NCBI GenBank assembly: GCA_964016885.1
Contig: OZ024755.1
Location: 34,658,001-34,722,000, forward strand
Length of the DNA stretch: 64,000 bases
Direction: 5' to 3'
Source: Eledone cirrhosa
Lineage: Eukaryota
The position numbers and the translations under genes are program-made. This document shows, piece by piece, positions 6,418 through 61,422 of this stretch (its first letter is position 1; each line of letters opens with the position of its first letter). The notes below the pieces were generated by a model. The model did no database searches. It saw only the letters and a program-made list of their open reading frames with translations, and had not been told where the DNA came from.

Positions 6418-6481
6418 ATTTTGTCTGAGGAAGGCATAACATATTTTTAATATGATATCCCAGAAATATATATAACGAAAT
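6418..6481 (+). ncRNA. Type I hammerhead ribozyme, family A copy 1
   Basis: attttgt-CTGAGGA-[stem II]-GAAA-T-ATAT-A-TA-acgaaat; stem I pairs 7/7 including one G-U. Confidence 0.7.
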
Positions 6482-6522
6482 AAATATGGTTTTATAAATA
6501 TAGTTTCCATTTGTTTAATAAC

Positions 6523-6560
<38 letters not shown>

Positions 6561-6922
6561 GTAAAAAAGAAAAGAACAGTAGAAAATGCTAAAGAGATTT
6601 TCTATCAGAATAACATCAAAACATTTATTTACAAAATAGGAATTCCCGCATTGATTGCACCGGTTTCAGCCTATACGCTTTTTCAATGACGGGAGTGAAT
6701 AATGCAATTAAATTGCATATTAATAAGAATAAAAATGTTATTAATATGCAATTTAATTGCATTATACATTTCTACTGCCTTTTTTACTATATTTATATAT
6801 TAGCCGGTAAAAACTTAAAACCACAACTGAATACTAACCAATACAATTACTAATACTCTTTTATTCCTAATTAAACTATTTTTCAACTGTGAACAATTTG
6901 TCAGCATTTTCTATTCCGTTTA

Positions 6923-6982
<60 letters not shown>

Positions 6983-7118
6983 AAATTATGTCCATAGAAT
7001 CATTTGATAAGATATATACACCATTTCCTCTCCTAATTAGCATAATCAACCACACAAAAAAAAAACAATTAAACCAGGCTATAAGATTAAAAGGCACTTA
7101 TGAAGAAATAATAGATAA

Positions 7119-7152
<34 letters not shown>

Positions 7153-7492
7153 GGAGTGTGGTTTGTGTGAAATAAAGTGAAATGACAGGAGGCCAAATAT
7201 GTTGAAAATCCTTAATTATCTATTCCTGCAAACACTATGCACATTTCAGTGGTTAGGTTGCGTTATAACCCGATTACATCTTCAGGTGTAAATTGCATAA
7301 TAGATCTATACCAATGGAATGATGGAAAACTTTAAGGAAACAACCAAAGAAAAAAACAGAAAAGAAGAAAATTGTGTGTTTATGATTTTGACCCAGAGAC
7401 AAACAAAGAAGCGTTCGGCTACACTGCCTCGTTGCGCTCGTGCGTGCGTGTGCGTGTGAGAGAAAAACCACAGACCCTCCATCTCAACTCTG

Positions 7493-7528
7493 CTTTTGAA
7501 AAGAAGAAGAACTGCGAAACCGGTAAAG
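7493..7528 (+). ncRNA. Minimal hammerhead, U3-A8 core variant (repeat family also at about 43310-43430, minus strand)
   Basis: ctt-TTGAAAA-gaa gaagaac tgc-GAAAC-CG-GTA-aag. Confidence 0.5.
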
Positions 7529-8194
7529 GAACCAAATAAATATATATATATATTTTTTAATAAGACTCCAGGTGCATTTTCGATTTCATCTCTTTTTCTT
7601 TATACTTTCACTCGTGGAGGACACATTTTGTAAAAAAAAACCTCACTCTCTAATATATATATATATACAGAAAGTTCAGTAAAACCGAAAAAAATTGGTG
7701 AGAGAACCATAGTCAGCATTCGATGCAGAGCAGACTGTATACAATAAGAACAAAGTGGGGGTGTTACATATTACATACCGCGACGACTAAGGGACAACTG
7801 TATATACTTAAGATATATACTTATGCTTTGAACATCAGAATTTCTTATTCTGAAAATAAACAAACAAACAAACACAAAAAAACAACAACAAATAATCTAA
7901 TAATAGGGGATTTCTAGCTACTGTACATTTTTTGTATGTAAATATAATTCGTTTTCATTTGAAGAGAATAAATATTTTGTTTTCATTTGAAATCACTGTT
8001 TTTTTTTCATTTCTGAAATATTTAAGTTTCGAATTCTTAAGAATGAAAATGTTATTACAAAATGCAAACAAAATACACTATACACTTGAAATGCAGATAA
8101 AACATATATAAAATATTCATTCATACACGGCATATAAGCCCTAATTGAAAAAAAACTTTGGTTCAGCTTTTTCTGCTGCACTTCGAGCTGAGGA

Positions 8195-8455
8195 GGCCAA
8201 ACTCTCCAAGTACCGGTCACTCTCCGACAGGTTTGCGGTTGTGCCCTTGACAGTGAAGACTTCTGGTGTCCTTGGCTAAAGGGCTACCTCCCTATTCACC
8301 ACCATACGTGCTGAGCTGGCCAGCCGCAGGTGTGAGCCTCGCCAGATGAAATGGCTCTTCCAGCGCATCTCCCTTACCATCCTCCGGGGAACGCCTTCTC
8401 CATTCTGTCCGCCGAAGCTGTGGGGCGGCCAGCACTAGGGACCCCATTTGCTCAC
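8195..8455 (+). mobile_element. CRE-clade non-LTR retrotransposon C-terminal (REL endonuclease) fragment
   Basis: Translates to ..VKTSGVLG...WLFQRISLTILRGNA..; GC-rich island. Confidence 0.7.
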
Positions 8456-8644
8456 TAAACAGAGAGATGGAGGTGATGATGGTTGGAGTTCGACTCTTCC
8501 CCGTTCAGACACATTACACCTGTCAAGAGTGTATTTTCATACTTGTGACGATTGTGAATTCCTATTTATAATTTGAATCTTACAATATTATGATTGGATT
8601 GCACCTGCCTCGCATTGGAGGTAAACAAAATCAAGTGTTTCCAT

Positions 8645-10050
8645 ACTAGAGCGTCAGACACCATGCCTTGCAGCATAGAGTTATGGCCCTTTATGGCCGA
8701 GGTTAGCTTTGCCTTTCACCGTTACGGGATCGATGAAATAAAGTACCAGTAATGCACTGGGTGTTTGCTGGCCTTGTGCCAAAAGTAGAAACAATTATTT
8801 CTGGTTCAGTAGAAGGTCAGACACCATGTTTTGCAGCACAGAGTTGTAAATAAAAAACAATCAACGTAAAAAGCCATAACTCTATGCTGCAAAGCATGGC
8901 GTCCGACCCTCTACTAAACCAAAAATGATTGTTTCTACTTTTGGCACAAGGCCAGCAATTACTCCAGTGCATTACTGGTACTTTATTTCATCAACCCCGT
9001 AAAGATGAAAGGCAACGCTAACCTCGGCCGGATTGAAATCAAAACGTAAGGGGCCACTACTCTATGCTGCAAAGCATGGCGTCCGACGCTATACTGAACA
9101 AAAAATAATTTATACATATAAGTATAAATATTATTATTATTATTATTATTACATTCTGAGTTCAAATCCCGCCGAGGTTAACTTTGCCTTTCATCCTTAC
9201 CAGGTCGATAAAATAAGTACCAGTAATACACTGGTAATTGCTGGCCTGGTGCCAAAAAAGTAGAAACAATTATTGCAATAGCAAATAAAAACTTTTAGTA
9301 TTACACTCATTAAATAGTGTTTCTCCGACCAATTAATTCAAAAATGAATAATTTCCTACTAGATAGGAAAGGCACAATTTTCACCTCCAATGCACGACAG
9401 ATGTAATTGGATAACTTTACCGAATATATTTTTTATAAATATTAAAAAGTAAATTTTAAATACAAAATTTGCTGATTCTGAAAAACTGTTGTTTAAAGCC
9501 TTGTTAAAGGATAAAAAAAAAATCTCCATGGACCTTTGAATTGCCAGTGACGAATCTTAAGTATGGAAAGATCTCAGAGATATATGACATCTTTTAGTTA
9601 GAGTTCTATAATAATTGTTCCTACTTTTGGCACAAGGCCAGAAGTACATTACTGGTACATTACTGGTACTTTATTTTATCAACCCCGTAAGGATGAAAGG
9701 CAAAGTCAACCTCGGCGAGATTTGAACTCAATCCGTAAAGGGACGCCATGCTGGAAAGCATGGCGTCCGACTCTCTACCGATACTGCCAAGCCAACTGGG
9801 TCGTCAAATATGAAATTTGTAGAAATTTGTTGTTTTTTTTCTACAAATCTCTACAAATTTCATACTTTACGACATAATATGGTTTCTAGAATAGGTAGAC
9901 AGCCAGTAATTTCGGGGAGGGGAAAGTCGATTAAATCGAACCAGTACATTACTGGTACTTTATTTTATCGACCCCGTAAGGATGAAAGGCAAAGTTAACC
10001 TCGGCGGAATTTGAACTCAGGCCGTAAATCCGCGGAGGTTAACTTTGCCC
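8645..10050. mobile_element. Cluster of tRNA-derived SINE family A copies in both orientations
   Basis: Repeated core ttaactttgcctttcatccttacggggtcgataaaataaagtaccag and tail ggccttgtgccaaaagtagaaacaattatt. Confidence 0.9.
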
Positions 10051-10447
10051 AATATAATAATAATGCTTACAGAACGAAAACACACATGATATATAATATA
10101 CACAACTATAAACGTATAACGAATAAAAGAAATACATATAATCATAATTGTATATATTTTCATGGTTGAAAGTATTGAAAGAATAGAAGTATTTATTAAA
10201 AACAAAATTCATCTTTATATTTCTATAATCAAAATATTGATAATCTCTGTTATATATATATTTTATATTTCCATACTTAAAATACATGGAATAGTCCTAT
10301 TTTATTGTTCTATGAAAGTGAAGGTAAAATTGAAGAAAAAGGCATTTTTTTTTTTAATTGTAGTGACGATGTATTTGTTTTGCAAGTTTGCCGATATAAT
10401 ATCGTGCATTGAAAGAGATATGGTTATATTTGGGGGAAGGTCATCTA

Positions 10448-10844
10448 CAGACCTGTCAACTCTCCTCGTTTGACATGGAGATCTCCCACCCACTTTGGGG
10501 TGGACAAGAGATGTCTTCTCTTGTGAAAATGGGTATAGCTTTCATTATGTAAAACCTTTGCCTTTCATTCTTACGGGGTCGATAAAGTAAAGTACCAGTA
10601 ATACACTGGGTTATTGCTGACCTTGTGCCAAAAATAGAAACAATTATGTAAAACCTCCTTTGCTTTTCATCCTTACGGGGTCGATAAAATAAAGTACCAG
10701 TCATGCACTGAATAATTACTGGCCTTGTGCCAAAAGTAGAACCAATTATGTAAAACCTCCCCATTGTATCTCATTTCTACCCGTTTTGGGGGTACCTGTT
10801 TTCGTGGTACTCCCCGTTTGGGTTTTTAGAGGTTGACAGGTCTG
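10448..10844. mobile_element. TIR MITE (hAT-like) with two nested SINE A fragments
   Basis: TIRs CAGACCTGTCAAC / GTTGACAGGTCTG; empty sister copy at 60607-60804; no clear TSD. Confidence 0.75.
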
Positions 10845-11094
10845 TGTTTTCCTAATATTGCCAGAAAAAAAAAATAAAACACACTCGCTGTTTTGTTTGG
10901 TTTGGTTTTCGCTTCAATATATTTTTAGATTTCAATAAATAATTATTTTTATTATCATATAACAAATATAGAAAGTCGATCGACAAGTTCCCAGATATCA
11001 TTCGCTTAACAAGTGGAGTGGAGTTCGTCAAATCGGACCGAGGAAACAATGTTTCCATTGGTCTTTCCAATTGCTAATACTATCTGTCAGTCGC

Positions 11095-11212
11095 AACTCC
11101 AAGCAAAAGGAGCAACATGAAATAAAGTGTCTTGCTCAAGGACATAACGCATCACCCGGTCAGGGAATCAAAATCACAACCTCACGATTGTGAATCCAAT
11201 TCTCTAACCACT
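11095..11212 (-). mobile_element. SINE family B head/CORE-like fragment
   Basis: Reverse complement reads tagtggttag...gtccttgagcaagacactttatttca. Confidence 0.75.
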
Positions 11213-13250
11213 ATAAGATTAAATAGAAGTAGACACATATAATCAATTCATTATTGCTAGGAATCTTATAAATATAATACACAATAGTATACAATCAAAG
11301 CGAAAGAAAATCCCCTCAATTTAACACCAAGTGCGTCAATGGATCACACACCATAAGGGACATTGGAAGTTTTTGAGGCAAGCCAACAACGAAAACCGAA
11401 ATATAAGAAACAAAACGTAGCACTTACTGTAATTTGTGTTCCTGTGAATAAAGAACGAAATATGCTCCACCAAAATTCCAATTGTAATGGCTTCCTGTTT
11501 GTGTACATATGCTGCCAGTAAAACAAACGAAATGTCAACTCAATTTCTATTATATTTAACCGTTTCCAAGACTTTAACTACAATGTTCAATCTTACTATA
11601 TATAAATTCCATTAAATTTAACTGTCTGTCTTTCTATTTTCGCTTGTGGCTATATATATATATATAACAAAGAAAGTATGGTAAGAAACTAGGTGGACCA
11701 TAACGCACCAGAGTACTAGATACTTAGAGTAGTAGAGTGGGTATTAGGAAGAGTCACCACCCCGCCGGCTGAGCTCCGGTCGTTTCGGATCTAGCAGTCG
11801 AAACAGTCGGAGCTCAGCCGTCGGGGTCGTGACTCTTTTCTTATATATATATATATATATATTTTTTTATTTATATATATATTATATATATATATATATA
11901 TACTCTCTTCCTGTCATTTCAGGCGTTAAACTAATATATTTCTTCCACCTACTGTGCCGTTTTGTTGTTATATAATACACACACACATATAAGTTACATT
12001 TAAAATTATGTCATGTTTGAGATAATCTCGAACTTGTGTCTTAACCCCTAAGAATAAGCTCAAAGAATAAATCTGAGCATTTAATCATTACAAAATAGTG
12101 AATGACATATATACATATATATCTAATGAAATATATATATATACATAAATATGTAATGATATATACGTACAATAGAACATATCAACTTTAACAGGAGATA
12201 ATCTGTATAGAATGTAATAAGAAGATATGGTTCATTACGGTATCATATTAAAATTAAACAAAAATTTAAAATATAGACCTGATAAAAATTATATATATAT
12301 ATATCTAAATATAAAAATGTTTCAGCTTTTAATTTCACTTTAATGGAACCCTAACAGAAGACATTGTCAATTAATGGCTGTCAGTCAACCGGATTAGTAT
12401 TCTACAGGGTGGTCCGAAAGTCTTAATGGTCTGAGTTCAAATCCTGTCGAGGTTAACTTTGCCTTTCATCCTTACGGGGTCGATAAAATAAAGTACCAGT
12501 AATACACTGGCATAATTGCTGCCCTTGTGCCAAAAGTAGAAACAATTTTTTTTTTTTAAATAATATAATATATATCATTAATTATAATATATAATAATTG
12601 TTTCTACTTTTGGCACAAGGCCAGCAATTATCACCAGTGTATTACTGGTACTTTATTTTATCGACCCCGTAAGGATGAAAGGCAAAGTTAACCTCTGCGG
12701 GATTTGAACTCGGATCATAAAGGGACGTAACTCTATGCTTCAAAGCATGGTGTCCGACTCTCTACCGATACTGCCAATCCACCGCCTATATAATAATTGT
12801 TTCTACCCTTGGCACAAGGCCAGCAATTACCCAGTGTATTACTGGCACTTTATTTTATCGACCCCGTAAGGATGAAAAGCAAAGTTAACCTCGGCGGGAT
12901 TTGAACTCAGATCGTAAAGTGACGTAACTACGCTGGAAAGCATGTCCGACCCTCCACCAAGAAATAAGATTTCGCTTCAAACATAGCTTTATACAATATG
13001 TATAGAAATTTCGTATTTCTAAAGAAATACGGTTTTATGAAGCCGTAGCTATGTAAACACCGGGAAGGGGGGGGGGGGCTTACGCCCTCTGGTGGTGTCC
13101 AGCAGTTCAAATCCCGCCGAGGTTAACTTTGTCTTTCATCCTTATGGGGTCGAAAAATAAAGTACCAGTAATGCACTGGCTAATTGCTGGCCTTGTGCCA
13201 AAATTAGAAACAATTATTATATATTATAATTAATTATATATATTATATTA

Positions 13251-13584
13251 TTTCTATACATATTGTATAAAACTATGCTTGAAGCGAAATCCTATTTCTT
13301 TTCTATTGTAAGTTGAGCCAACTTATGCAGCTTCATATGCAAATGAGATTAATCACCTCATTTACACAGACGAGAAAACTATATATTCTCGGCTATTTTC
13401 AAGTCCAGCAGTAGCAAACGGGGGGAGAGATCGTCCTGACGAAGGCCAGGCAACCCTGAAATGCATATATGGTCCCTTGCTTCTGCTGGACACCATCAGA
13501 GGGCGTTAGCCCCGCCCCCTCCCGGTGTTTACATAGCTACGGCTTCATACAACCGTATTTCTTTAGAAATACGAAATTTCTATA
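13251..13584 (+). mobile_element. 326-bp retrozyme-like (HHR-bearing non-autonomous) monomer
   Basis: Terminal repeat tttctata; inverted copy at 12959-13105 reads across the end-to-start junction; contains an HHR and ATGCAAAT. Confidence 0.65.
13403..13491 (+). ncRNA. Type I hammerhead ribozyme with extended stem I
   Basis: CTGACGA (13436)-agg...cct-GAAA (13458)-TGCA-TA; stem I closed by gtccagcag/ctgctggac, agcaa/ttgct and gatcgt/atggtc. Confidence 0.7.
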
Positions 13585-14159
13585 AATAATATAATTTTCT
13601 TATAATATATGGTTTCTGATTTAGGCACAAGGGCAGCAATTTTTTTTTGGGGGGGGGGGGGGGGGGGTCTATTAAATCGACCCCAGTGCGTGACTGGTAC
13701 TTTATTTTATAGACATTGTAAGGATGAAAGGCAAAGTTAACCTCGGCAGGATTTGAACTCAGACCGTAAAGGGGCGTAACTCCATACTGCAAAGCATGGC
13801 GTCCGACCCTCTACCGATACTGCTAATCCACCAATAATAATAATTTTCTTTATGACAAGACTTTCAGACCACCCTGTACATGTGTGCCAAATTGGCATTA
13901 AAATAACTAGCAGAAAAACCACCCTTCGAGTGGTTTTCTGCTAGCATGTGTAGTGTGTATATTGATATTATACGCAGGTATATATGCATGTAGATATGAT
14001 ACATCAAATAAAATCGTAATTGACAATATACACAAATTGAACGAAGACTGTGTTACACTGTCTTATTTAATAAGTAACGTAATCCATGATACATTAAAAA
14101 AGACGATATTATATATAAACTGCATTAGGAGAAAATTAGTGACAGAAAATTATTATGTT

Positions 14160-14510
14160 TATTTAAGCGACCGCTAACCGGAAGTGTTGACATTTCAGAA
14201 ATTTTAAAGAAGTGAATCTTTAAATAAACAAAATTTATTTAATCAACAACCACGAAATTTAGTAGATAAATTATGTAATATTCATTCATTATTTTTTTCA
14301 AAGTAATCCAACTTATTTTACTAATGGGATAAAAAAATTATAAACCGTACGCAGTCCCACGCTCCTTACTTTATTATAGTTTAGACTAGGTAATGCTGAG
14401 AGCATGCTGACTTGCCTCAAAAAGTATTAGAGACGTTCCAGTCCTCCTCGCGATATCTGTTCTGGCAGTGGTTCGTTTGTCCACCCCCTTTCGCTTGCCT
14501 TTTGATGTAT
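14160..14510 (+). promoter_or_regulatory. Possible promoter or first non-coding exon
   Basis: ETS-type ACCGGAAGTG at about 14177, locally CpG-richer unique sequence, possible donor gat|gtatgt at about 14506. Confidence 0.2.
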
Positions 14511-14849
14511 GTAGGTCCAAGATGCGTGTATTACATGCTGCTGTTTTTTTCTTATTTGTAATATTATTTATACAATTGTGAATAAAATGAATAGGTGCAG
14601 ACAATTCTGTAAATGACATTTGTAGACTTTCAATTTTATTTATTTATTTTTTGTACGGGGTGGGGAGATGCTATATAGATACCCGTAAAATAGATTCCCA
14701 GGCTATGTAGCCGGTAAGAGTGTCAGACACCATGAGTTGCGGCCTTTTACGATCTGAGTTAATACAATTTGAAATCTTTTCCACCATCAATTGTTAAAAA
14801 AAACAAGTTGAAATCATTTAGTCGTATGTTACTTTTTATTTATATACCA

Positions 14850-37000: not shown

Positions 37001-37253
37001 TCACATACATATATATATATATACATACATACACACACATACATATATATATATGTAGAAGTTCTATTTAAATTGTTGGGATACAACAAGCAAATATTTT
37101 TATAACTGATATAAAGCACTCAACAAATAATTGGAGTAAAAATACGATATTAACAAATGGAAACTATATTTATAAAACCATATTTATTTCATTATACATA
37201 TTTCGAAATATGTATAATGAAATAATTATATATATATATATACACACACACAT

Positions 37254-45734: not shown

Positions 45735-46905
45735 CTGTTGAAGTCCCTTGAGTTCATGGAATGTGAAAACACATGGGAATCATTGAAGAAAACCGTCTAT
45801 GATGTTAGTGCTGGAGTTTTAGGTCAAACCAATAGAAAGCATAAAGACTGGTTTGATGAAAATGATGCAGTGATCCAGACCTTGCTTGAAGAGAAACAAA
45901 AAAGTGCTGACATCATTTTTGTGTGAGACACGTTCTGACGGGAGTGACCGGACCCTCAGGCAGGTCAAGGCACGCGTGCAACATCGATTGAGAGCCATGC
46001 AGGATACCTGGTGGAGCAAAAAGGCTGATGAAATCCAGAAGGCCTCAGATAGACAGGATTCAAAGCTCTTATACAGTCTGCTCAGGGAGGTGTATGGTCC
46101 TACCAGTCCACAAATATCATTACTTCACTGCACGGAAGGCAAGGAATTTCTCAGAGAAGGAAATCCTGATCAGGTGGCATGACCACTTTGATGAGCTTCT
46201 CAACAGACCATCAGAAATTGATGATGAGTTCATCCGGTCGATTCCATTCAGACCTACAAACCTGGCAATGGCTGATCCTCCTTCATCTGATGAGGTGGCG
46301 AAGGCCATTGCCAAATTAAACAGCGACAAGACACCTGGAATGGATGGACTGAGTGCTGAGATTTTCAAGTGTGCTGGTGGTAACTTCTTAAATTCTCTCA
46401 TTGATCTCTTTGTGAATGTCCACAGGACTGAATGATGGTGGTACTTTACAAAGGAAAGGGAGCCAAAGATTGTGGCAACTACAGAGGTATCTCACTGTTA
46501 TCTGTGACTGGGAAGATCTTGTGCAGGATTTTGTTGGACAGATTGATACAGCACATTGCTGTTGAGGTACTTCCTGAGTCCCAATGTGGCTTTAGGAATG
46601 GCAGAGGCACTGTTGACATGATTTTCTTGGCCAAACAACTTCAGGAGAAATGCATTGAGCAGCGCATGAACTTATACTAAGTTTTTGTCGATCTGACCAA
46701 GAAATTTGACACTGTTAATCGGAAGGCTTTGTGGGTTATTTTTGAGAAATTGGGCTGTCCCGAAAAGTTTGTGCACATTCTGAAACTCTTCCACGATGAC
46801 ATGCAGGTATGGGTGAATGTTGGAGGTAAACTGTCTGAGTCAATCTCGGTTCAAAATGGTGTCAAGCAGGGTGATATACCTGCACCAACTTTGTTTGCCT
46901 TGTAT
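45735..46905 (+). mobile_element. Second RTE family (BovB/RTE-1-like) RT fragment
   Basis: HKDWFDEND, RWHDHFDELLN, NYRGISLLS, PESQCGFR, QLQEKC, GVKQG..APTLF. Confidence 0.9.
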
Positions 46906-46919: not shown

Positions 46920-49800
46920 CCACCATCACCACCACCACCACCATGACCACTGCCACCACCACCACCATGACCACTGCCACCACCACCACCACCACCACCA
47001 CCATGGCCACTGCGACCACCACCGCCACCACCACCACCACCGGCTACCACCACTACTAACAAGATCACAACAACCACCACCACCATGGCCACCACCACTG
47101 CCACTACCAACAACAACACCACTACCATCACCCCAATCATCACCATCACCACTACCACTAACACCACCACCACTGCTACCACCACCACTACAATCTGTTA
47201 TCCTCACCAAAGTGTTGACTCTGATAAGAATCTTTAAGAATTCTTTTAATGATATCTTCAACACTTCTTCCTAAGATCTTATCAATGTTGTTGGTGTTGT
47301 TGGTGGTGTTGTTGGTGGTGTTGATGTTGGTGGTGTTGATGTTGTTGTTGTTGGTGGTGTTGATGTTGTTGTTGTTGGTGGTGTTGTTGGTGGTGTTGTT
47401 GGTGGTGTTGTTGGTGGTGGTGGTGTTGTTGGTGTTGTTGGTGGTGTTGATGTTGTTGTTGTTGGTGGTGTTGTTGGTGGTGGTGGTGTTGTTGGTGGTG
47501 TTGTTGTTGGTGGTGTTGATGTTGTTGTTGGTGGTGTTGTTGTTGGTGGTGGAGTTAGTGCTGTTTTGGTGGTGTTGGTGGTGTTGTTGGTGGTGTTGTT
47601 GGTGGTGTTGTTGGTGGTGTTGTTGGTGGTGGTGGTGTTGTTGGTGTTGTTGGTGGTGTTGATGTTGTTGTTGTTGGTGGTGTTGTTGGTGTTGTTGTTG
47701 GTGGTGTTGGTGGTGTTGGTGTTGGTGGTGTTGTTGGTATTGTGGTGTTGGTGATGTTGTTGGTGGTGGTGTTGTTGGTGTTGTTGTTGTTGGTGGTGTT
47801 GGTGGTGGTGGTGCTGTTGTTGTTGGTGGTGGTGTTGTTGTTGGTGGTGGTGTTGTTGTTGGTGGTGGTGTTGTTGGTGGTGGAGTTGTTGTTGGTGGTG
47901 GAGTTAGTGCTGTTTTGGTGGTGTTGGTGGTGTTGTTGTTGGTGGTGGTGGTGGTGGTTGTGTTGGTGGTGGTGTTGGTGGTGTTGTTGGTGTTGTTGTT
48001 GGTGGTGGTGTTGTTGGTGGTGGTGGTGTTGGTGGTGGTGGTGGTGTTGGTGGTGGTGGTGGTGTTGTTGTTGGTGGTGTTGTTGTTGTTGGTGGTGTTG
48101 TTGTTGGTGTTGTTGTTGGTGGTGTTGTTGGTGGTGTTGCTGTTTGTGGTGTTGGTGGTGTTGTTGTTGGTGTTGGTGGTGGTGTTGTTGTTGGTGGTGT
48201 TGTTGTTGGTGGTGTTGTTGTTGATGGTGTTGCTGTTTGTGGTGTTGGTGGTGTTGTTGTTGGTGTTTGTGGTGGTGCTGTTGTTGTTGGTGGTGTTGGT
48301 GTTGGTGGTGGTGTTGTTGTTGTTGTTGTTGTTGGAGGTGGTGGTGGTGTTGGTGGTGGTGGTGTTGTTGTTGGTGGTGTTGTTGGTGGTGGTGTTGTTG
48401 GTGGTGTTGTTGTTGGTGGTGTTGTTGTTGGTGGTGGTGTTGTTGGTGGTGGTGTTGTTGGTGGTGGTGTTGTTGGTGGTGGTGTTGTTGGTGGTGGTGT
48501 TGTTGGTGGTGGTGTTGGTGGTGTTGTTGTTGGTGGTGGTGGTGTTGTTGTTGGTGGTGTTGGTGGTGTTGTTGGTGATGTTGGTGGTGGTGGTGTTGGT
48601 GGTGGTGGTGTTGGTGGTTGTGTTGGTGGTGTTGGTGGTGGTGTTGTTGGTGGTGGTGGTGTTGTTGTTGTTGGTGGTGTTGTTGGTGGTGGTGGTGTTG
48701 TTGCTGGTGGTGGTGTTTTTGGTGTTGCTGTTGGTGGTGTTGTTGGTGTTGTTGGTGTTGGTGGTGTTGGTGGTGTTGGTGGTGGTGGTGGTGTTGGTGG
48801 TGTTGTTGGTGGTGGTGTTGTTGTTGGTGGTGGTGTTGTTGGTGGTGTTGCTGGTGTTTGCTGGTGTTGGTGGTGGTGTTGTTGGTGGTGGTATTGTTGG
48901 TGGTGTTGTTGTTGTTGGTGGTAGTGTTGTTGGTGGTGGTAGTGTTGTTGGTGGTGGTGGTGTTGTTGGTGGTGGTGTTATTGGTGGTAGTGTTGGTGGT
49001 GTTGGTGGTGTTGTTGGTGTTGGTGTTTTTGGTGTTGGTGTTGTTGGTGGTGGTGTTGCTGGTGTTTGCTGGTGTTGTTGGTGTTGGTGTTGCTGGTGTT
49101 TGCTGGTGTTGTTGGTGGTGGTGTTGTTGTTGGTGGTGGTGTTGTTGGTGGTGTTGTTGTTGGTGGTGGTGGTGTTGGTGGTGGTGTTGTTGGTGGTGGT
49201 GTTGGTGGTGTTGTGGTTGGTGGTGGTGTTGTTGGTGGTGTTGGTGATGTTGTTGGTGGTATTGGTGGTGTTGTTGGTGTTGTTGTTGGTGGTGGTGTTG
49301 GTGGTGTTGTTGGTGGTGGTGTTGTTGTTGGTGGTGGTGGTGGTGGTGTTGTTGCTGGTGGTGGTGTTTTTGGTGTTGGTGTTGGTGGTGTTGTTGGTGT
49401 TGGTGGTGTTGGTGGTGGTGTTGTTGTTGGTGGTGGTGTTGTTGGTGGTGGTGTTGTTGGTGTTGGTGGTAGTGTTGTTGGTGGTGTTGCTGGTGGTGTT
49501 GTTGTTGGTGGTGGTAGTGTTGTTGGTGGTGGTGGTGTTATTGGTGGTGGTGTTATTGGTGGTGGTGTTGGTGGTGTTGTTGGTGGTGGTGTTGGTGTTT
49601 TTGGTGTTGGTGTTGTTGGTGTTTGCTGGTGTTGGTGGTGGTGTTGTTGGTGCTGGTGGTGGTGTTGTTGTTGTTGTTGTTGTTGGTGGTGTTGTTGTTG
49701 GTATTATTGTTGTTATTATTGTTGTTGATGTGGCTTTATTGTTGTTACTCTGTTGTTGTTATTGTTGTCATCGCTTTGTTGTTGTTTTGTTGGTGTTGTT
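46920..49800. repeat. (CAC/CAA)n block followed by 2.5-kb (GGT/GTT)n trinucleotide array
   Basis: Directly visible. Confidence 0.95.
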
Positions 49801-49999
49801 GTTGTTGTTATTGTATTCTTATGTTGTCTTTCTCTATCTTTCTGTGTATGTGTCTGTCTGTAGGCCTATGTTTGTATGTGTATGTTTCTGTCTGTATGCA
49901 TGTGTTTGTATGTGTGTGTCTGAATGTATCTGTTTGTATGTGTATGTGTGTGTCTCTTTGTTTATTACTGCAAGTATTGCCTCATGTTAAATAATATAA

Positions 50000-50622: not shown

Positions 50623-50669
<47 letters not shown>

Positions 50670-51575: not shown

Positions 51576-51577
<2 letters not shown>

Positions 51578-52486
51578 ATGTTTTCAAAAAATGATGGAAT
51601 GATTACACCATTATAAGCAAAACAAATAGAGAAAACTGCCAAAGATCTCTTGTGACATTATTCTTCATATATTGATTTCATATATAGGCACACGTCTTTA
51701 CAGAGAAAACAAGATTATCTCATTGATATTACTGACTGTTTCTTTTTTGTTGGAGCATTGCCTATAATGTTTTTTTGTTTATAGCTAATTATATCATACC
51801 TCGTACTCAGTCAGGTAGTCAATGTGTTATTTTGTTTTACTGAGTAAATAATCAGGAGATATTTACACCAGTAAAAAAACTAGTTACATATATATATATC
51901 ATCATCATCAACGTTTAACGTCCGTGTTCCACGCTTGCATGGGTCTGGACGGGGGTTTTCCCACTTGAGGCAAGAGTGGTTGTCTTGCTCACATAGGACT
52001 GTCTGGCGGGTTTTCTACAGCTGGATGCCCTTCCTAACACCAACCACATTTACAGTGTGGGGCTGGGAGGTTTTTTCCGTGTTGCCTACACGGCCACATT
52101 ACAGCGTGGACTGTCTGGCGGGTTTTCTACGGCTGGATGCCCTTCCTAACACCAACCACATTTACAGTGTGGGGCTGAGAGGTTTTAACCGTGTTACCTA
52201 CACGGCCACATTACAGCGTGAACTGTGTGTTTTTTGACGTGACACTACACGATCTCATTTGTTTCGGCCTGGATGTTGTGGCACCAACATAACTTTACAT
52301 TGAAAGGGGCGGTGTGGATGGGGTGGGGGTGGTGGGACGGGGGTGTATTTTGTTAGAGATGCCTACTGACTGTAGTAGGTTTTACTTTGTATTTAGGTAA
52401 GGCGGGTCTTCTCTATTACTGAGTAATATATATATATATATATACAATATATTAATAAATGGAAACTATATTTATAAAACCATAAT

Positions 52487-52552
52487 TATTTTATTATATA
52501 TATTTCAAGGGCGACCAAGGTAAATTATGGTGCGCTTTCATCAGATAAAATA
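52487..52552 (-). ncRNA. Type I hammerhead ribozyme, family A copy 2
   Basis: Reverse complement tattttat-CTGATGA-aagcgcacca..tggtcgccctt-GAAA-T-ATAT-A-TA-ataaaata; perfect 8-bp stem I. Confidence 0.8.
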
Positions 52553-52712
52553 CAGATTTGTTTTATAAATAAATATTGACATACCTGGAAAAAAGACAAC
52601 CTCAACGGTTGAAATTCGCTGGATAAACTGTTGAGTGCTTTATATCAGTTATAAAAAATGTTAAGCTTGTTGAATCCCAACAAATTAAATATAACCTCTG
52701 CATATATATAGA

Positions 52713-53053: not shown

Positions 53054-54436
53054 GACTGTTTCCCTTGTAGCAAGTGAAAATATCTCAGCAGGTCACAGGT
53101 GGGTAGTAATATAGCTAGAGATAATGTATTATACTTGACAAAAGAAGATAGAGTGTTTAGAGGGTTCTTTGGTGGGGATGGTTTATAGATCAGGGATCTG
53201 TTTGATTATGGATGTCTAAGGGCTAAGCAACAACAATAACAACAACAGAAGCAGCAATAACAATATACTCATCATCATCATCATCATCAAGATCAAAGCA
53301 ACAAATATCATAATCATCACCATTGTTATCATCATCATTGTTGTCATCTTTCTTCCCCCTACATCATGATCCTTATCACTGTCATCCGCCTCCACCATCT
53401 CCCCCCCATCACCAATACCACCATCTCCCCCCCCCCACCAACACCTTCCTCAACACCACCACCATCTCCCCCAACAACACCACCCCTACTGCTTACCAAC
53501 AACACTATATGTATATATATATACACACACACACATATATATATATATATAATGGAAAAATTTGAACAGGGACAAAACAGAGAGGCAGTACAACGAATGT
53601 TTATTAATTTCACGCTCTGGAGAGTGGGGTGTTGGTGGGGGACAAAGAATCTTATACGGAAAAAAACGAGTACAGTAACAAAATCAAACAGAGGTAATGC
53701 GTGGAAGGAAAGACCAAGTGTGGGAAGGTGTGTAAAGTTCGGAGAAAGGTCACGGCGGATTAGATCGGGGTTGAGCCGGTAGTTAAGTTATGTTCCAAAG
53801 GAATGGAAGCCGTGTGAGCGTGTATTATATATAATGGAAAAATTTGAACAGGGACAAAACAGAGAGTCAGTACAACGAATGTTTATTAATTTCACGCTCT
53901 GGAGAGTGGGGTGTTGGTGGGGGACATATATGATAAAAATAGTCCTTCGTCAGTGATTTTCCAACCATTATTGGTATTTCATCGCATTAAAAATCAGATA
54001 CCTCAGGTTGGTGCGAGCAATAACTAAAAGAAGTTATTGGGACCAGTAATTAGCGTAAATAAAGCGAGGGGGACAAGTAAACAACATAGAAGGATAAAAG
54101 CAAACCGAAGATAGGAAAATAAACAAGCAACATGGTTGTCCGGTCAGCATAAGCTGGGTGGATTTCATGATCGAGAGAGACACAGACCGTCCGATGTGTG
54201 TGAGATGTAAGCAAGAAGAGACCCACTACAAGCCAAACGGGAGGAAGTGAGAAGGGGAGAAACAGAGAGTAAGTGAGTGGAAGTGTGAGGAAGAGGTCAG
54301 TCGAGAGAAAGTGTAACTGACAGAGAGGGCGAGTTTGTCTGTTTCTCTTTTACTGCTTCTCCGCTCTCTCTGTTTCTCTCACCTTCTTTCGCCCCTTCTG
54401 TCAGTTACACTTTCTCTCGACTGACCTCTTCCTCAG

Positions 54437-54854
54437 AAGGGTACCAAGACACATTGGTATGCTTTCCTCAGATAAAATACAAAGACATACCCATGAAAAT
54501 CATACCTTATCAGTCGGATATTCATTGAATAGTGGAAATATATTAGGGATTTTTCAAACTTATGTGTGAATATGCAAATGAATATGTAAATAATTGAAAA
54601 CAACCGTTTATTTAAACGACTATGGAGAGAGAGAAGAGATAAGAGGAGAAGGATAAAAAAAAGTGAGAGAGAGAGAAGAAAGAAACAAGAGAAGATGAAT
54701 GAAAACTCATATAACGTTAATTTGAGGGAAAAATATTCTAAGTATATATCTTAATAGTACGTGTATTTACGATTATTAGTTGTTTAAAATTTGTTTATAA
54801 TATAATTTTTTTTTTTCTGTTATAAGTAGATAAATAAATAAATAAATAAATACA

Positions 54855-54885
<31 letters not shown>

Positions 54886-55680
54886 ACAAATAAATAGATG
54901 GGTATATCATGTCATAGATAATTGTTCTAATGAGTTATGAGGGATATTGGTTTTGTATTTAATGTAAATAAATATTAAGTTAAATTAAATTAAATTAACT
55001 GAATTAAGAAGAATATTTGGGAAGATACGGAAAAAACTCCGCTTTTATTTATTTATTCGTGAGTGTGAGACTATTTAGTCAAAATAAGTGTAGATGTTGA
55101 AAGATACATTTTGCCAGAATCAGTTAGTGGTTATAAATCTATTGAAAAAATATTGATAAATTAATGAAAAAATTATTGAAAAAGTATTGAAAAAATATTG
55201 AATAATTTGAGAAAATTTTTTTTTAAATTAATTTATAAGAGATAAGTAATTTTTAAAGAAGTAAAATTTAAAGAAATAAAAATTAAAGAAATAAAAATTA
55301 TTAAAATTAAAATTTAAAAAAATTAGAATTATATACGTATATATTTTATGAAACTTTAAGAAGTCGAATTACAGCAAATGTTATAGATATGATTTAGAGA
55401 TATCAATATATTAAAACCAAGTGGATGAGATTGTTATGGAAATAAGTAAAAATATTATAAGTTATATATAGTTCTGAATGTTGAATTCTGGCAATGTCTT
55501 AAATAAATTCGTTCTTAGATTAATAGAGTTTTTACATTTAAGTATGAAAAAAATTTCCTCAATATACAATTTGCATAATCTAAATGAAGCTGTGTTTCGG
55601 TACACGGGTGCTTTTGAAACTATTTCCCAAGGTAATGAGTAGTCCATATTCTTACATTTTAAGTTCCATAATTTGTTGAG
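54437..55680 (-). mobile_element. 3' portion of a second Naiad-type PLE: GIY-YIG C-terminus, then pLTR with truncated family A HHR (54437-54479)
   Basis: DYSLPWEIVSKA..Y...CKLYIEE..FIL....N.R; downstream gtattttat-CTGAGGA-aagcatacca..tggtaccctt. Confidence 0.65.
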
Positions 55681-55744
55681 TGCTCTAAATCAGTTATAAA
55701 CATTTATATTTGTCAGACTTCCAGCAAATTAAATACCCCTTCTA

Positions 55745-55786
<42 letters not shown>

Positions 55787-56865
55787 TTTACTCAGCTGTA
55801 GAAATGAGATGATAGGGACTGGGGTCCCTATCATTCCACTGTTAAGTGGTCGTGGAGGTGCCACGGCAAAAAAGCAACCAGCACTCACTGTAAATGAGGT
55901 CGGTGTTAGGAAGGGCATCCAGCTGTAGAAATCAAGCCAGAATCAGTTCCCGTCCCACCCTTGCAAGCAGGGAAAAAGCGGACGTAAAATGAAATGATGA
56001 TATATTATGAAATACTGTTGGCTTCTTGCTCACATTAATTTCTCTATTTTCATTTATCTATATATATATATATAGAGAGATAGATATATATATACACAAA
56101 CATATATATATATATATATAATAAGAAGAAGTTTACTCGACATTTGAATTAGCTCAATGAATTACCGGAGCCGAATCTGGTCCCTTACAATTTGAACACA
56201 TATATGTATATGTCTGCGTTCATCTTTCTTTTTTGTTCAGTTATATTATACGGCTCAGAAAAACCTCTTTCCTAGAGCTATTGTATTGTAAGAGACTATT
56301 TTGAGTTTGTAACTCAATATATGCTTTTGATATATTTGACTCCGTTAATTCGTCGAGCTAATTCAAATGTCGAGTAAACCCGGCTGCTATTTTTTAGTGG
56401 AGTGAGTTTGTGAGACACGCTAAGTGCTGGCACCATGTGCGTTATATATACACACACTATCCAGTTTTTTAATATACTTAGAAGTGATCAGGATACTAAT
56501 AATTCTTCACCCGCTGATGAGCTAGAATTTTGGTATTCCTCTTCACAATTAATATTGCGAAACAGTATTATCAAAACTGTCCGGGTGATTGGTAGTTACC
56601 ACAAATCTGGTTTGTATTTATTTTCTTGATATATTCTTAAATTGAGTCTGGCAAACTCTATTGTCTGTAGTTAGTATTCTTTTCACCTTAGCGAATCTGG
56701 TCCCTTACGATTTGAACACATATATGTATATGTCTGTGTTTCTCTTTCTTTTTTGTTCAGTTATACTATACGGTTCGGAAAAACCTCTTTCCTAGAGCTA
56801 ATGTTATTGTAAGAGACCATTTTGAATTTCTAACTCAATATATGCCTTTGATATATATCATCATC

Positions 56866-56935
<70 letters not shown>

Positions 56936-57034
56936 AGCCAACATAACTTCAGTAAGGCAGCAAATATTGTCAGTTGGGGATAGCTGACACTAAGAATAGA
57001 GAACAGAGTTGATAAATAACACGAATGAATTAAT

Positions 57035-57410
57035 AAATGATGGTGATGGTGATGATGGTAATGGACATGGTGATGGTGATGATGATGGACATGGTGGTGA
57101 TGATGATGGTGATAATGATAATGATGTTCATGGCAATGATAATGATGGTGGTGTTGATGGTGATGGTGATGGTGATGATGATGGTCATGGTCATGATGAT
57201 GGTGATGGTGATGATGATAATGGTGATGATACTGATAATGATGATGATGATGATGATTATGGTCATCATCATGACGACGACAATGACAATGATGATGATA
57301 ATGGTGACGACAATGATGATGATGAAGATTATGATGACGATGATGATGATGATAACAATAATAATGAAGAATATAACCTGATGATAACGATGATGATGAT
57401 GATGATGTAA
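57035..57410. repeat. (GAT/GGT)n trinucleotide repeat
   Basis: Directly visible. Confidence 0.95.
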
Positions 57411-57738
57411 CTATAAGTATTCATATATGCCATTAGTCACCAGTCGTTGTGATAACAAATTTTAAACAAGATGATAGTAAATTGTTCACAGTGTAGCATG
57501 ACTAATTGAATATAAATAAGACACCAGTCACGAGTTGTTTCATATGTGAGGAAGTAATAGTAGGAAATATCGGTCATTGATTGTCCAGTGAACAGAGAAC
57601 ATCAATAATATGGACAGCACTTCATATTAATTCATAAGAAATTTATTCAATACTTTTAACTAGTACTTAGTAACACAGCCTGTTATTTTATTGCTGTTGT
57701 TGTTGTTGTTGATTCACTAAGGTGTTTGAATTAAACGG

Positions 57739-59322
57739 CTAGTGAATTGATGGGACCCTGAGGTAGTTGGACTAGTGAATTGATGGGACCCTGAGGTAGT
57801 TGGACTAGTGAATTGATGGGACCCTGAGGTAGTTGGACTAGTGAATTGATGGGACCCTGAGGTAGTTGGACTAGTGAATTGATGGGACCCTGAGGTAGTT
57901 GGACTAGTGAATTGATGGGACCCTGAGGTAGTTGGACTAGTGAATTGATGGGACCCTGAGGTAGTTGGACTAGTGAATTGATGGGACCCTGAGGTAGTTG
58001 GACTAGTGAATTGATGGGACCCTGAGGTAGTTGGACTAGTGGATTGATGGGACCCTGAGGTAGTTGGACTAGTGGATTGATGGGACCCTGAGGTAGTTGG
58101 ACTAGTGAATTGGTGGGACCCTGAGGTAGTTGGACTAGTGGATTGATGGGACCCTGAGGTAGTTGGACAAGTGAATTGATGGGACCCTGAGGTAGTTGGA
58201 CTAGTGAATTGATGGGACCCTGAGGTAGTTGGACTAGTGGATTGATGGGACCCTGAGGTAGTTGGACAAGTGAATTGATGGGACCCTGAGGTAGTTGGAC
58301 TAGTGAATTGATGGGACCCTGAGGTAGTTGGACTAGTGGATTGATGGGACCCTGAGGTAGTTGGACTAGTGAATTGATGGGACCCTGAGGTAGTTGGACT
58401 AGTAAATTGATGGGACCCTGAGGTAGTTGGACTAGTGGATTGATGGGACCCTGAGGTAGTTGGACTAGTGAATTGGTGGGACCCTGAGGTAGTTGGACTA
58501 GTGGATTGATGGGACCCTGAGGTAGTTGGACAAGTGAATTGATGGGACCCTGAGGTAGTTGGACTAGTGAATTGATGGGGCCCTGAGGTAGTTGGACAAG
58601 TGGATTGATGGGACCCTGAGGTAGTTGGACTAGTGGATTGATGGGGCCCTGAGGTAGTTGGACTAGTTAATTGATGGGACCCTGAGGTAGTTGGACTAGT
58701 GGATTGATGGGACCCTGAGGTAGTTGGACTAGTGAATTGATGGGACCCTGAGGTAGTTGGACTAGTTAATTGATGGGACCCTGAGGTAGTTGGACTAGTG
58801 GATTGATGGGACCTTGAGGTAGTTGGACTAGTGAATTGGTGGGACCCTGAGGTAGTTGGACTAGTGAATTGGTGGGACCCTGAGGTAGTTGGACTAGTGA
58901 ATTGATGGGACCCTGAGGTAGTTGGACTAGTTAATTGATGGGACCCTGAGGTAGTTGGACTAGTGGATTGATGGGACCCTGAGGTAGTTGGACAAGTGAA
59001 TTGATGGGACCCTGAGGTAGTTGGACTAGTGAATTGATGGGGCCCTGAGGTAGTTGGACAAGTGGATTGATGGGACCCTGAGGTAGTTGGACTAGTGGAT
59101 TGATGGGGCCCTGAGGTAGTTGGACTAGTGAATTGATGGGACCCTGAGGTAGTTGGACAAGTGAATTGATGGGGCCCTGAGGTAGTTGGACTAGTGAATT
59201 GATGGGGACCTGAGGTAGTTGGACTAGTTAATTGATGGGGCCCTGAGGTAGTTGGACTAGTTAATTGATGGGGCCCTGAGGTAGTTGGACTAGTTAATTG
59301 ATGGGCCCCTGAGGTAGTTGGA
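57739..59322. repeat. Exactly 48 x 33-bp tandem array (ctagtgaattgatgggaccctgaggtagttgga)
   Basis: 1584 bp = 48 x 33; substitutions only, no length variation seen. Confidence 0.97.
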
Positions 59323-59356
59323 AGATATACTCAAGATAGTAAATAATCACAACCAA

Positions 59357-60195
59357 TGGCGGTGGATTGGCAGTATTGGTAGAGGATCAGACGCCATGCT
59401 TTGCAGCATAGAGTTATGACTCTTTACATTCTGAGTTCAAATCCCAACGAGCTTAAACTATGCCTTTCATCCTTACGGGGTCAATAAAATAAAGTACCAG
59501 TAATACACTGGAGTAATAGCTGGCCTTGTGCCAAAAGTAGAAACAATTATTTTCTGAGGGAGAATGGCAGTAAACAGCAGAGCATCGGGACCCCATAATT
59601 TGCAGTATAGAGTTTTGGTCCTTTACGTTCTGAGTTCAAATCCCACCGAGGTTAACTTTGCCTTTCATCCTTACGGGGTCGATAAAATAAAGTACCAGTA
59701 ATGCACTGAGGTAATTGCTGGCCTTGTGCCAAAAGTAGAAACAATTATTAACCCTTTAGCATTTAGACCAGCTGTATCCGGCCAGAATTCTCTCACCTCT
59801 TTCTCTTCAAATTGGCCATAACTGGTCACTCGTACCAACGTTAAGGTATTGTTCTCAAAATAAATATCGAAATCTCATAGATTTGATATTATTTGAGATA
59901 AAGCCTTTTCTGTGAAAATACAATAATAAATATAGAATAATGTGAATGCTAAAGGGTTAAATATCAAAGGATGGTTGGTTAGCAGTAATCAGTAGAGCAT
60001 CAGACACGGTAGCGTCAGGCAGCATAGATTTATGGCCATTTATGATCTGAGTTCAAATTCTGCCGAGATTAACTTTACCTTTCATGCTTACAGATTTGAT
60101 AAAATATAGCACCAGTAATGTACTGGGGTCGATTTAATTAACTTTCTCCTCCCCCTTCAAATTGCTGGCCTAGTACCTAAAGTAGAAACAATTAT
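59357..60195 (+). mobile_element. Three head-to-tail SINE A copies with a piggyBac-like MITE (59752-59956)
   Basis: SINE A consensus; TTAA-CCCTTTAG...CTAAAGGG-TTAA. Confidence 0.9.
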
Positions 60196-60606
60196 TAGTA
60201 AGGATATAGGTTAATAGATGAGGTGCTGATTGATCTGTGGTAAAGACGGGGAAGGTAAAAACTTGATTTTTCTTTTTGTTGAACTCATTTTTTTCATTTA
60301 ATCATCAGAATTTAATACATGAGCTTTAGTGCAATTAACTGTGATCTACCATACTAAACCTTTTACAACAAACTTAGGTTCCAGTTAGATTAGCTAATTC
60401 AATTATGATGAAGTATGGGGCTGAACTGGTAATACACTGGGAAAATTGCTGGCCTTGTGCCAAAAATAGAAACAATTATTATTAAATATTAACGAACCCT
60501 ATAGTTCTGTAGATCATTTCTAGTATTGTAGGTTAGATGGAAAAATTTAAACACACACACTCCACCTTCATCATCATTATCATCGGTATCAACATTATCA
60601 CTGTAT

Positions 60607-60804
60607 CAGACCTGTCAACACTCTCCATCTGACGGGGAGATCTCCCACCCACTTTGGGGTGAGTGAGAGATGTCTTCCCTTGTGAAAATGGGTATAGCTT
60701 TCATTATGTAAAATTTCCCCATTTCGTCTCATTTCTCCGCGTTTTGAAGCACATTTTTTTTTCATGGTACTCCCCGTTTAGGCTTTTAGAGGTTGGCAGG
60801 TCTG
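60607..60804. mobile_element. TIR MITE, empty sister of 10448-10844
   Basis: CAGACCTGTCAAC ... GTTGGCAGGTCTG. Confidence 0.75.
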
Positions 60805-61359
60805 CAATTTTACAACTGTTTTCCATGCTTTCATGGGTTAGACTGGCTGTCATACTCTGAGGTTAGGCAGGCAAGTCAAATGACAGTGCCTTGGTCATAT
60901 GTTCCATTTTAATATGGTTTGATGCCTTTCCTTATCACCAATCACTTGACAGTATGAAATACACCATGGTCATTTTCTCGTGAAAAGAGGGGGAGATAGA
61001 TGCACACACAATATTAGGTAGATAAACTGAATAAAAAACAATTTGTAGCATACATACATACATATATCATCATCATCATCAACGTTTAACGTCCGTGTTC
61101 CACGCTTGCATGGGTTTGGACGGGGGTTTTCCCACTTGAGGCAAGAGTGATTGTCTTGCTCGCATAGGACTGTCTGGCGGGTTTTCTACAGCTGGATGCC
61201 CTTCCTAACACCGACCACATTTACAGTGTGGGGCTGGGAGGTTTTTACCGTGTTGCCTACACGGCCACATTACAGCGTGGACTGTCTGGCGGGTAGCCTG
61301 GAAGATATATATATACAATGATATTAAATAAATGGAAACTATATTTATAAAACCATACT

Positions 61360-61422
61360 TATTCTATTATATATATTTCAAGGGTACCAAAAAACTTTGG
61401 TACACTTTCATCAGATAAAATA
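61360..61422 (-). ncRNA. Type I hammerhead ribozyme, family A copy 3
   Basis: Reverse complement tattttat-CTGATGA-aagtgtaccaa..ttggtaccctt-GAAA-T-ATAT-A-TA-atagaata. Confidence 0.8.

What the first reader, a model, noticed from the sequence alone, without database searches (positions are those of the whole stretch)
6418..61422. Dispersed HHR family A shows compensatory base changes and links to a PLE 3' end
Seen: copies at 6418-6481 (+), 52487-52552 (-), 61360-61422 (-) and a truncated one at 54437-54479 (-). The three full copies keep CTGANGA, GAAA and an AUA triplet with a palindromic ATATATAT stem III. Stem I covaries (ttttat/ataaaa versus ttttgt/acgaaa), and stem II differs in sequence yet stays paired. 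The 54437 copy lies about 1 kb downstream of a GIY-YIG C-terminus on the same strand. Established: palindromic stem III minimal HHRs cleave as dimers. Inference: a structurally selected, probably active ribozyme lineage with an unusually long stem II and a cleavage site inside a TA run.
Basis: partly seen in the sequence, partly recalled or inferred. Interest (0 to 1): 0.7.

Follow-up and report, generated by a model that had tools for sequence, protein, structure and literature searches.

The report
Penelope-type hammerhead, possibly inside an intron
These repeats are leftover ends of a very abundant Penelope-type jumping gene whose predicted self-cutting RNA motif is preserved in all its sub-lineages; this is a known arrangement, but here new copies were apparently made from RNA not cut at that motif, which may sit inside a short intron just behind the element's likely promoter.

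Summary
The copies are real. They are ends of a Hydra-clade Penelope-like retrotransposon (PLE): 41,359 exact marker hits in the genome, and intact 741-742 aa RT/GIY-YIG frames elsewhere. Across 15 subfamilies the hammerhead core never changes (0 of 11 columns against 66 of 114 others), and stems I and II change in compensating pairs, so selection on the fold is shown. Cleavage is untested. Long stem II, palindromic stem III and (TA)n targeting are published PLE traits. The cut site is not where copies start or end. Of 98 unselected arms, 5 end near it and 22 stop about 135 nt upstream at an initiator-like motif. That motif is followed by a DPE-like word at +27/28 and a splice-donor-like word at about +44, the layout of Drosophila Penelope. 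A conserved AG after the ribozyme would place the whole hammerhead in a roughly 125-nt intron; no RNA data were available, and no spliced DNA copy was found. Copies end at two fixed sites, each a few bases before a small twin hairpin; this scan reported such hairpins before on other DNA. Verdict: new member of a known kind, with one testable twist.

The parts
6231..6523 (+). Single arm of the youngest subfamily: end of the 3' UTR, promoter-like block, hammerhead, ending at fixed site b against (TA)n
6335..6341 (+). Initiator-like motif CACTACC; candidate RNA start at A6336 (inferred from the pile-up of arm 5' ends)
6362..6366 (+). DPE-like word AGTTG at +27 to +31 from the candidate start
6379..6503 (+). 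Candidate 125-nt intron (donor-like GTATGT at +44, acceptor-like TAG) that would enclose the whole hammerhead; splicing untested
   Evidence: no spliced DNA copy
6394..6498 (+). Hammerhead with its outer 10-bp helix: stem I 6417-6424/6475-6482, core 6425-6431, stem II 6432-6462, GAAA 6463-6466, stem III palindrome 6466-6473, predicted cut after 6474
37049..37204 (-). Fifth copy: tail arm ending at fixed site c, running back to G12 of the hammerhead; joined head to head to a 22-nt piece (37205-37226, + strand)
37118..37137 (-). Hairpin b (ACTC...GAGT) behind end site b
52437..52625 (-). Arm ending at site b; starts inside the initiator-like motif; hammerhead 52487-52552, predicted cut after 52495
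52625..52707 (+). Inverted tail arm ending at site c, partner of the arm above
54437..55670 (-). 1.2-kb arm: GIY-YIG C-terminal fragment (about 55670-55490), 3' UTR, 5' half of the hammerhead up to the end of stem II; the rest is replaced by unrelated sequence
55665..55754 (+). Inverted tail arm ending at site c, partner of the 54437 arm
61304..61441 (-). Arm ending at site b; hammerhead 61360-61422, predicted cut after 61368
61461..61563 (+). Inverted tail arm ending at site c, holding hairpin b at 61471-61490

Best explanation
The four repeats are truncated ends of a high-copy Hydra-clade Penelope-like retrotransposon whose type I hammerhead core is conserved across its subfamilies, and the ribozyme likely cuts only slowly and with help (a second hammerhead pairing through the AUAUAUAU palindrome, or the element's protein), which would turn full transcripts into unit-length RNA, probably circles. 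Shown: membership, conservation, two fixed copy ends (b and c) in (TA)n, and arms that run through the cut site. Inferred: RNA starts about 135 nt upstream of the cut site at an initiator/DPE-type promoter; the RT-endonuclease binds two small hairpins behind b and c and primes one arm from each side of a cut in (TA)n; short arms are copies of the uncut 5' end of the transcript; long and more-than-unit arms come from a template in which the 3' UTR is followed by the 5' leader, as in a circle made by cutting at both hammerheads and re-joining. The window copies themselves are passive leftovers.
For: Protein motifs RWR, DKT, YRDD, CxCX5C, CxxC..E, LN.R and CxH in a 741-aa frame match the Hydra definition. 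Core 0 of 11 columns variable against 66 of 114 others over 15 subfamily clusters, Fisher p 1.5e-4; N7, the free core position, takes A, G and T among cluster majorities and C in 4 of 245 copies. Stem I 100% paired with an A-U, G-U, G-C series; four stem II pairs change on both sides; 22 double changes against 8.9 in shuffles. Of 98 unselected arms, 62 end at b and 36 run on into the tail; 50 of 62 b-ends lie 2-8 nt before hairpin b. Inverted pairs are b+c in 60 of 77 cases. 22 of 98 arms stop 0-9 nt inside the CACTA(T)CC motif (p 2e-11 against local density), with no excess at the cut site (p 0.22-0.65). Among 77 copies that hold the ORF start, 34 of 40 that reach this motif run on past it, against 38 of 60 first-pass arms (p 0.02). 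The two direct repeats of one element differ by at most 5 of about 169 nt in 15 of 21 pairs; 5 of the other 6 have a 5' copy truncated inside the compared stretch. Two internal RT start sites and a protein-assisted hammerhead are shown in vitro for an anole PLE (PMC11167929).
Against: No cleavage, ligation, circle or RNA start was observed; no RNA data could be used. In the anole PLE, hammerhead mutants did not affect insertion in vitro and no reads began or ended at the cut site. More-than-unit copies can also come from read-through of tandem copies or from template jumps. The hairpin pairs never vary within this family, so pairing rests on A-U in hairpin b against G-C in hairpin c. Only 14 of 25 scored c-ends (of 36) lay 3-7 nt before hairpin c. 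Clusters are related, so the Fisher and shuffle numbers overstate independence. The youngest subfamily has an A.A mismatch next to the core, and the stem III duplex is weak. The 98 arms all come from the first 20 Mb of one chromosome.
Confidence: 0.6

Rival explanations
1. The hammerhead lies inside a 5' UTR intron and works as a switch: splicing removes it from the message that is translated, while unspliced RNA keeps it and serves as template or is cut. This can hold together with the best explanation, or replace the circle as the reason for selection.
For: Donor-like GT word at +42 to +46 in 20 of 23 reference copies. 175 of 180 arms have a donor-like site at +40-47 or +25-32, against 9% of control windows; 6 of 8 S-type arms have lost the +44 site and keep only the upstream one. 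TAG behind the ribozyme in 165 of 180 arms. D. virilis Penelope has Inr, DPE and a 75-bp intron 46 bp after its start (PMC2377424), and that intron ends at helix I of its hammerhead.
Against: No spliced copy among the 9 hits of two exact patterns; PLEs are known to retain introns, so this is not decisive. The donor word can also pair with the CACTA(T)CC motif (seen in several folds). The acceptor lies in the block I used as anchor, so its conservation is not independent. A related family at 62340-62745 has the same start motif but no donor-like word before its hammerhead. Some subfamilies keep an ATG outside the candidate intron.
Confidence: 0.2
2. The hammerhead only trims long read-through or tandem transcripts into linear pieces; more-than-unit copies arise from tandem read-through or from RT jumping from the RNA 5' end to the matching 3' repeat, without circles.
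For: Most sampled arms run through the cut site and many stop at the candidate RNA start, as expected of uncut linear RNA. Hammerhead cleavage is dispensable for insertion in vitro in the anole PLE. Tandem copies exist in the genome.
Against: Cleaved linear RNA should leave 5' ends piled at the cut site; none of the 77 copies holding the ORF start has a true end there (one internal deletion scored -6). Jumps would not by themselves explain why the core is conserved in every subfamily.
Confidence: 0.15
3. The fold is kept as a binding or structural element for the element's protein and does not cleave in vivo.
For: Weak A/U stem III and monomer fold 3-5 kcal/mol above the minimum-energy fold; position 10.1-11.1 is free (A-U, A.A, A.C, G-U); low activity of related motifs.
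Against: The invariant positions are exactly the catalytic ones, N7 is free and H17 is never G among cluster majorities. Published Hydra hammerheads also carry a mismatch at 10.1-11.1.
Confidence: 0.05

Closest known systems
Hydra clade of C-terminal EN+ PLEs, including Hydra-1_Obim (Craig et al. 2021, PMC8557442; passages, section 11, supplement part 2 of 59 and further supplement passages read)
   Same: DKT, RW[K/R], CxCX5C linker, CxxC and CxH around E and N, (TA)n target, canonical hammerhead near the 3' end, often with a mismatch at 10.1-11.1.
   Different: A different family: its hammerhead differs from Hydra-1_Obim in all three stems. The unit is 3.7-4.1 kb against under about 3 kb, with a 3' UTR over 1 kb. 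Copy number is in the tens of thousands. Stem III is a pure A/U palindrome.
Metazoan PLE minimal and palindromic-helix-III hammerheads (Cervera and de la Pena 2014, PMC4209133; abstract, Results and Discussion read, supplement not seen)
   Same: Type I, large helix II, palindromic helix III, many consensus families with covariation, proposed dimer cleavage and circular template.
   Different: No G10.1-C11.1 pair; stem I is 8 bp plus an outer 10-bp helix; the candidate intron would enclose the ribozyme instead of ending at helix I as in D. virilis.
Poseidon_Ac (PAc) in vitro system (Frangieh et al. 2024, PMC11167929; parts 1-3 of 4 read, supplement not seen)
   Same: Two internal RT start sites that define the tail, AT-rich target, both strands extended, hammerhead upstream of the start sites.
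   Different: Here the two ends lie about 100 nt apart in the 5' leader, each before its own hairpin; in PAc they are adjacent and lie inside the ORF.
Drosophila virilis Penelope promoter (Schostak et al. 2008, PMC2377424; passages and section 15 read); rotifer Pen2a pLTR (PMC3846280; passages read)
   Same: Internal Inr/DPE promoter in the pLTR with a donor 46 bp after the start; Inr-like TCACT in the rotifer element; inverted truncated arm with a one-sided tail.
   Different: There the start and the splicing were measured; here they are inferred from DNA copies only.

Membership tests
Type I hammerhead ribozyme | Core C3 U4 G5 A6 N7 G8 A9 / G12 A13 A14 A15.1 / U16.1 H17 | tested here: met
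   Present in the three full window copies; intact in 216 of 245 copies and invariant over 15 clusters
Type I hammerhead ribozyme | Stems I and II paired, supported by compensatory change | tested here: met
   Stem I 100% paired, stem II 88% with four double-change pairs; slid controls 41-54%
Type I hammerhead ribozyme | Stable stem III (monomer) or palindrome for a dimer | tested here: inconclusive
   Palindrome kept (AUAUAUAU or AUAUGUAU) but duplex only -3.2 or -2.2 kcal/mol
Type I hammerhead ribozyme | G10.1-C11.1 pair typical of canonical motifs | tested here: not met
   A-U, A.A, A.C or G-U; mismatches here are also listed for published Hydra hammerheads
Type I hammerhead ribozyme | Self-cleavage after H17 | not testable with these tools
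   Needs RNA experiments
Hydra clade PLE | Single ORF, RT then C-terminal GIY-YIG; DKT and RWK-type motifs | tested here: met
   741-aa frame with RIRWR, DKT, YRDD, YVGST; no Pfam family was hit, so the call rests on motifs and on reading the published alignment by eye
Hydra clade PLE | CxCX5C linker; CxxC and CxH flanking the conserved E and N | tested here: met
   CNCRDRSKC, CDLCAEE, LNLR, CRH (definition)
Hydra clade PLE | Absence of the CCHH motif | tested here: inconclusive
   Not evident on reading the protein; no alignment to CCHH-bearing clades was made
Hydra clade PLE | Insertion into (TA)n; hammerhead in the pLTR | tested here: met
Hydra clade PLE | Length generally under 3 kb | tested here: not met
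   Cut-site-to-cut-site unit 3.7-4.1 kb in most complete copies; the paper gives this as a tendency, not a rule
Hydra clade PLE | Placement in the Hydra clade of an RT tree | not tested
   No tree with published reference proteins was built
Non-LTR retrozyme | Short non-coding unit in tandem arrays, one hammerhead per unit | tested here: not met
   Hammerhead belongs to a coding 3.7-4.1 kb unit; window copies are dispersed truncated arms (definition)

The most novel reading that the evidence does not exclude
In this Hydra-clade family the whole hammerhead sits inside a retained 5' UTR intron behind an Inr/DPE promoter, so splicing removes the ribozyme from the message while the unspliced RNA keeps it, is gated to cut only as a pair into a unit circle, and is copied from twin hairpin-defined start sites. 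This would give a concrete reason for both PLE intron retention and PLE hammerheads.
Probability: 0.3. Interest if true: 0.72.

Novelty: new member of a known kind. Interest (0 to 1): 0.45.

Why it matters
What hammerheads do in endonuclease-bearing PLEs is stated to be unclear (PMC8557442), and why PLEs keep introns is also open. This family offers tens of thousands of copies, young intact ORFs and sharp predictions: a start nucleotide, a splice junction around the ribozyme, a circle junction at AUA, and two hairpin-set RT starts. The ribozyme itself is an expected part of such elements.

Tried and rejected
Rfam gave no hammerhead among the matches listed. Pfam gave no family for two ORF pieces. 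Idea that the cleaved UA-rich end primes on (TA)n: rejected as a main route, 86 matches end there (29 of 30 inspected do not continue into the element) against 41,359 marker hits. Idea that copies start at the cut site: no excess. MITE or Helitron reading of the short hairpin-shaped copies: rejected, both arms are pieces of the coding element. A second, HDV-like ribozyme at the upstream stop: considered from recalled topology and dropped, no fitting double pseudoknot seen; not searched with a model. A first junction pattern found nothing because it was too strict. One search used a mis-registered structure string and is replaced. over-extended arms into their inverted partners and is replaced. 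The Fisher test used rough counts and is replaced. RNA: no RNA holder listed; contigs of three runs of unrecorded kind showed no skip across the candidate intron and say nothing on expression. The covariance model finds the three full copies at 98-102 bits, but it was built from their own subfamilies. Paper searches (listings only, apart from the six papers read in part) showed no report of a PLE hammerhead enclosed by an intron or of twin start hairpins; unread supplements of PMC4209133 and PMC11167929 and papers outside the library may bear on this.
Full report
Observation. The three full copies have CUGANGA, GAAA, AUAUAUAU and an AUA triplet. Single copies fold no better than shuffles, and no hammerhead was among the 150 of 183 Rfam matches listed. 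A fifth remnant and three inverted tail arms belong to the same element.

What it is. The window lies in a 3.0-Gb genome; I did not determine the organism. A 28-base marker behind the ribozyme has 41,359 exact hits, and the reversed control has none. Longer copies lead upstream through a 3' UTR of over 1 kb into an RT/GIY-YIG frame. Four of 26 loci examined hold intact ATG-started frames of 741-742 aa. The protein has RIRWR, DKT, YRDD, CxCX5C, CxxC..E, LN.R and CxH, the motifs that define the Hydra clade (PMC8557442 section 11). That paper lists canonical hammerheads and (TA)n targets for the clade and one octopus member with a different hammerhead (supplement). Each window copy belongs to a different subfamily. 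The 6418 subfamily is very young (40 best matches 98-100%); the 52487 and 61360 types are older (89-96% and 82-90%).

Selection on the fold. From 245 copies, chosen by a downstream anchor and a core match allowing two changes, 15 clusters of three or more were formed; 47 copies in smaller clusters were left out of the column count. No core column varies between clusters (0 of 11), while 66 of 114 other columns do (p 1.5e-4); N7 is free. Four stem II pairs change on both sides, and slid controls fall to 41-54%. The clusters are related, so these numbers are not probabilities. Position 10.1-11.1 is free, as in published Hydra motifs. Large helix II and palindromic helix III are known PLE traits (PMC4209133 Results). 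The stem III duplex is weak (-3.2 kcal/mol), so cleavage probably needs help; the anole PLE hammerhead cleaves only with protein (PMC11167929).

Where copies end. In 98 arms taken in genome order from the start of one chromosome, 62 end at site b, about 47 nt after the cut site, and 36 run on into a tail that ends at site c, about 100 nt further. Inverted pairs are one b and one c in 60 of 77 cases. This is the PLE tail, explained in the anole element by two RT start sites. Here each site is followed by a small hairpin, ACTC...GAGT after b and GCTC...GAGC after c; 50 of 62 b-ends lie 2-8 nt before it, and 14 of 25 scored c-ends 3-7 nt before it. Hairpin c exists only where the tail joins the ORF start (550 exact matches). 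Its pairs do not vary inside the family. I noted this motif; the look-up then showed that this scan had reported such twin hairpins several times on other DNA of this genome. By eye, similar hairpins are visible in two published Hydra sequences.

The cut site is not an end. Only 86 matches end in the stem III TA run. Eight of 98 arms scored within 10 nt of the cut; three of these are internal deletions that continue upstream, and neither 5 nor 8 is an excess. So most templates were uncut or re-joined at that site.

An upstream stop and a promoter-like block. 22 of 98 arms stop 0-9 nt inside a motif CACTA(T)CC, 124-139 nt upstream of the cut depending on subfamily (p 2e-11). The window's 52487 copy is one such arm. 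Counting from its A, a DPE-like RGWYV word (consensus recalled) lies at +27 or +28 in 19 of 23 reference copies and 136 of 180 arms, and a donor-like word at +42 to +46 in 20 of 23. S-type arms have mostly lost that donor and keep one at about +28 (6 of 8). D. virilis Penelope has Inr, DPE and a donor 46 bp after its measured start (PMC2377424). I infer an RNA start here, though a structure-caused stop is possible. The only conserved AG downstream lies about 28 nt after the cut, which would put the whole hammerhead in an intron of about 110-125 nt. Against this: no spliced copy among 9 pattern hits, an alternative pairing role for the donor word, and no donor in a related family in the window.

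More-than-unit copies. Among 77 copies that hold the ORF start, 34 of the 40 that reach the start motif continue past it, compared with 38 of 60 first-pass arms (p 0.02; one pair of identical contexts counted once). Direct repeats of one element are nearly identical (15 of 21 pairs differ by at most 5 of about 169 nt). A single template was therefore probably copied for more than one unit. A circle made by cutting at both hammerheads, as proposed in PMC4209133, fits and gives the conserved core a job; tandem read-through or template jumps fit too.

Verdict. The finding is real and is a new member of a known kind: the pLTR hammerhead of a Hydra-clade PLE. The added value is genomic evidence that templates pass uncut through the ribozyme, and a testable promoter and intron layout around it. 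Activity, start site, splicing and circles all remain untested.

Noticed in passing
window 62340-62745: A second two-armed hammerhead element (cores at 62528 - and 62646 +) with an AUGCGCAU palindromic stem III, both arms starting just before the same CACTATCC motif, a hairpin of the same type in its tail, but no donor-like word; scores 31 bits on the family A model.
   Followed up: partly
window 63804 (-), 27985 (-), 13436 (+), 28410 (-), 7285 (-), 3749 (+), 56514 (+): Further CTGANGA...GAAA motifs with hairpin-like stem II, from other families; 63804 and 27985 are related to each other.
   Followed up: no
window 54286-54435: An inverted-repeat sequence beginning with a second CTGAGGA replaces the 3' half of the 54437 hammerhead.
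   Followed up: no
L010, L011, L012, L020, L027, L030 (centre of each locus): Many short copies join their two arms inside the hammerhead's own stems, giving near-perfect palindromes that lack the 5' half of the core.
   Followed up: partly
L348, about 5440-5560 on the minus strand: A more distant relative with the same core and stem III but a wholly different stem II.
   Followed up: no
L154:4180-4275 and other junction copies: A 9-bp helix can join the sequence after hairpin b to the sequence after hairpin c, closing a domain just before the ATG; all variation seen keeps pairing.
   Followed up: partly
window 5174-5299 and 12476-12669: Long near-perfect inverted repeats, MITE-like; weak Rfam miRNA matches below threshold.
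   Followed up: no
window 57576-59330 and 47170-49990: A 33-bp tandem array of about 49 copies at 96-100% identity, and a long array of 9/12/15-bp units.
   Followed up: no
window 45874-46435: Open frames whose sequence near 46290-46370 resembles a LINE reverse transcriptase N-terminal motif (recalled, not tested).
   Followed up: no
whole genome G000: A 278-aa piece of the ORF drew 80,872 first-look candidates, so Hydra-like PLEs are extremely abundant here, whereas the defining paper found few families.
   Followed up: no
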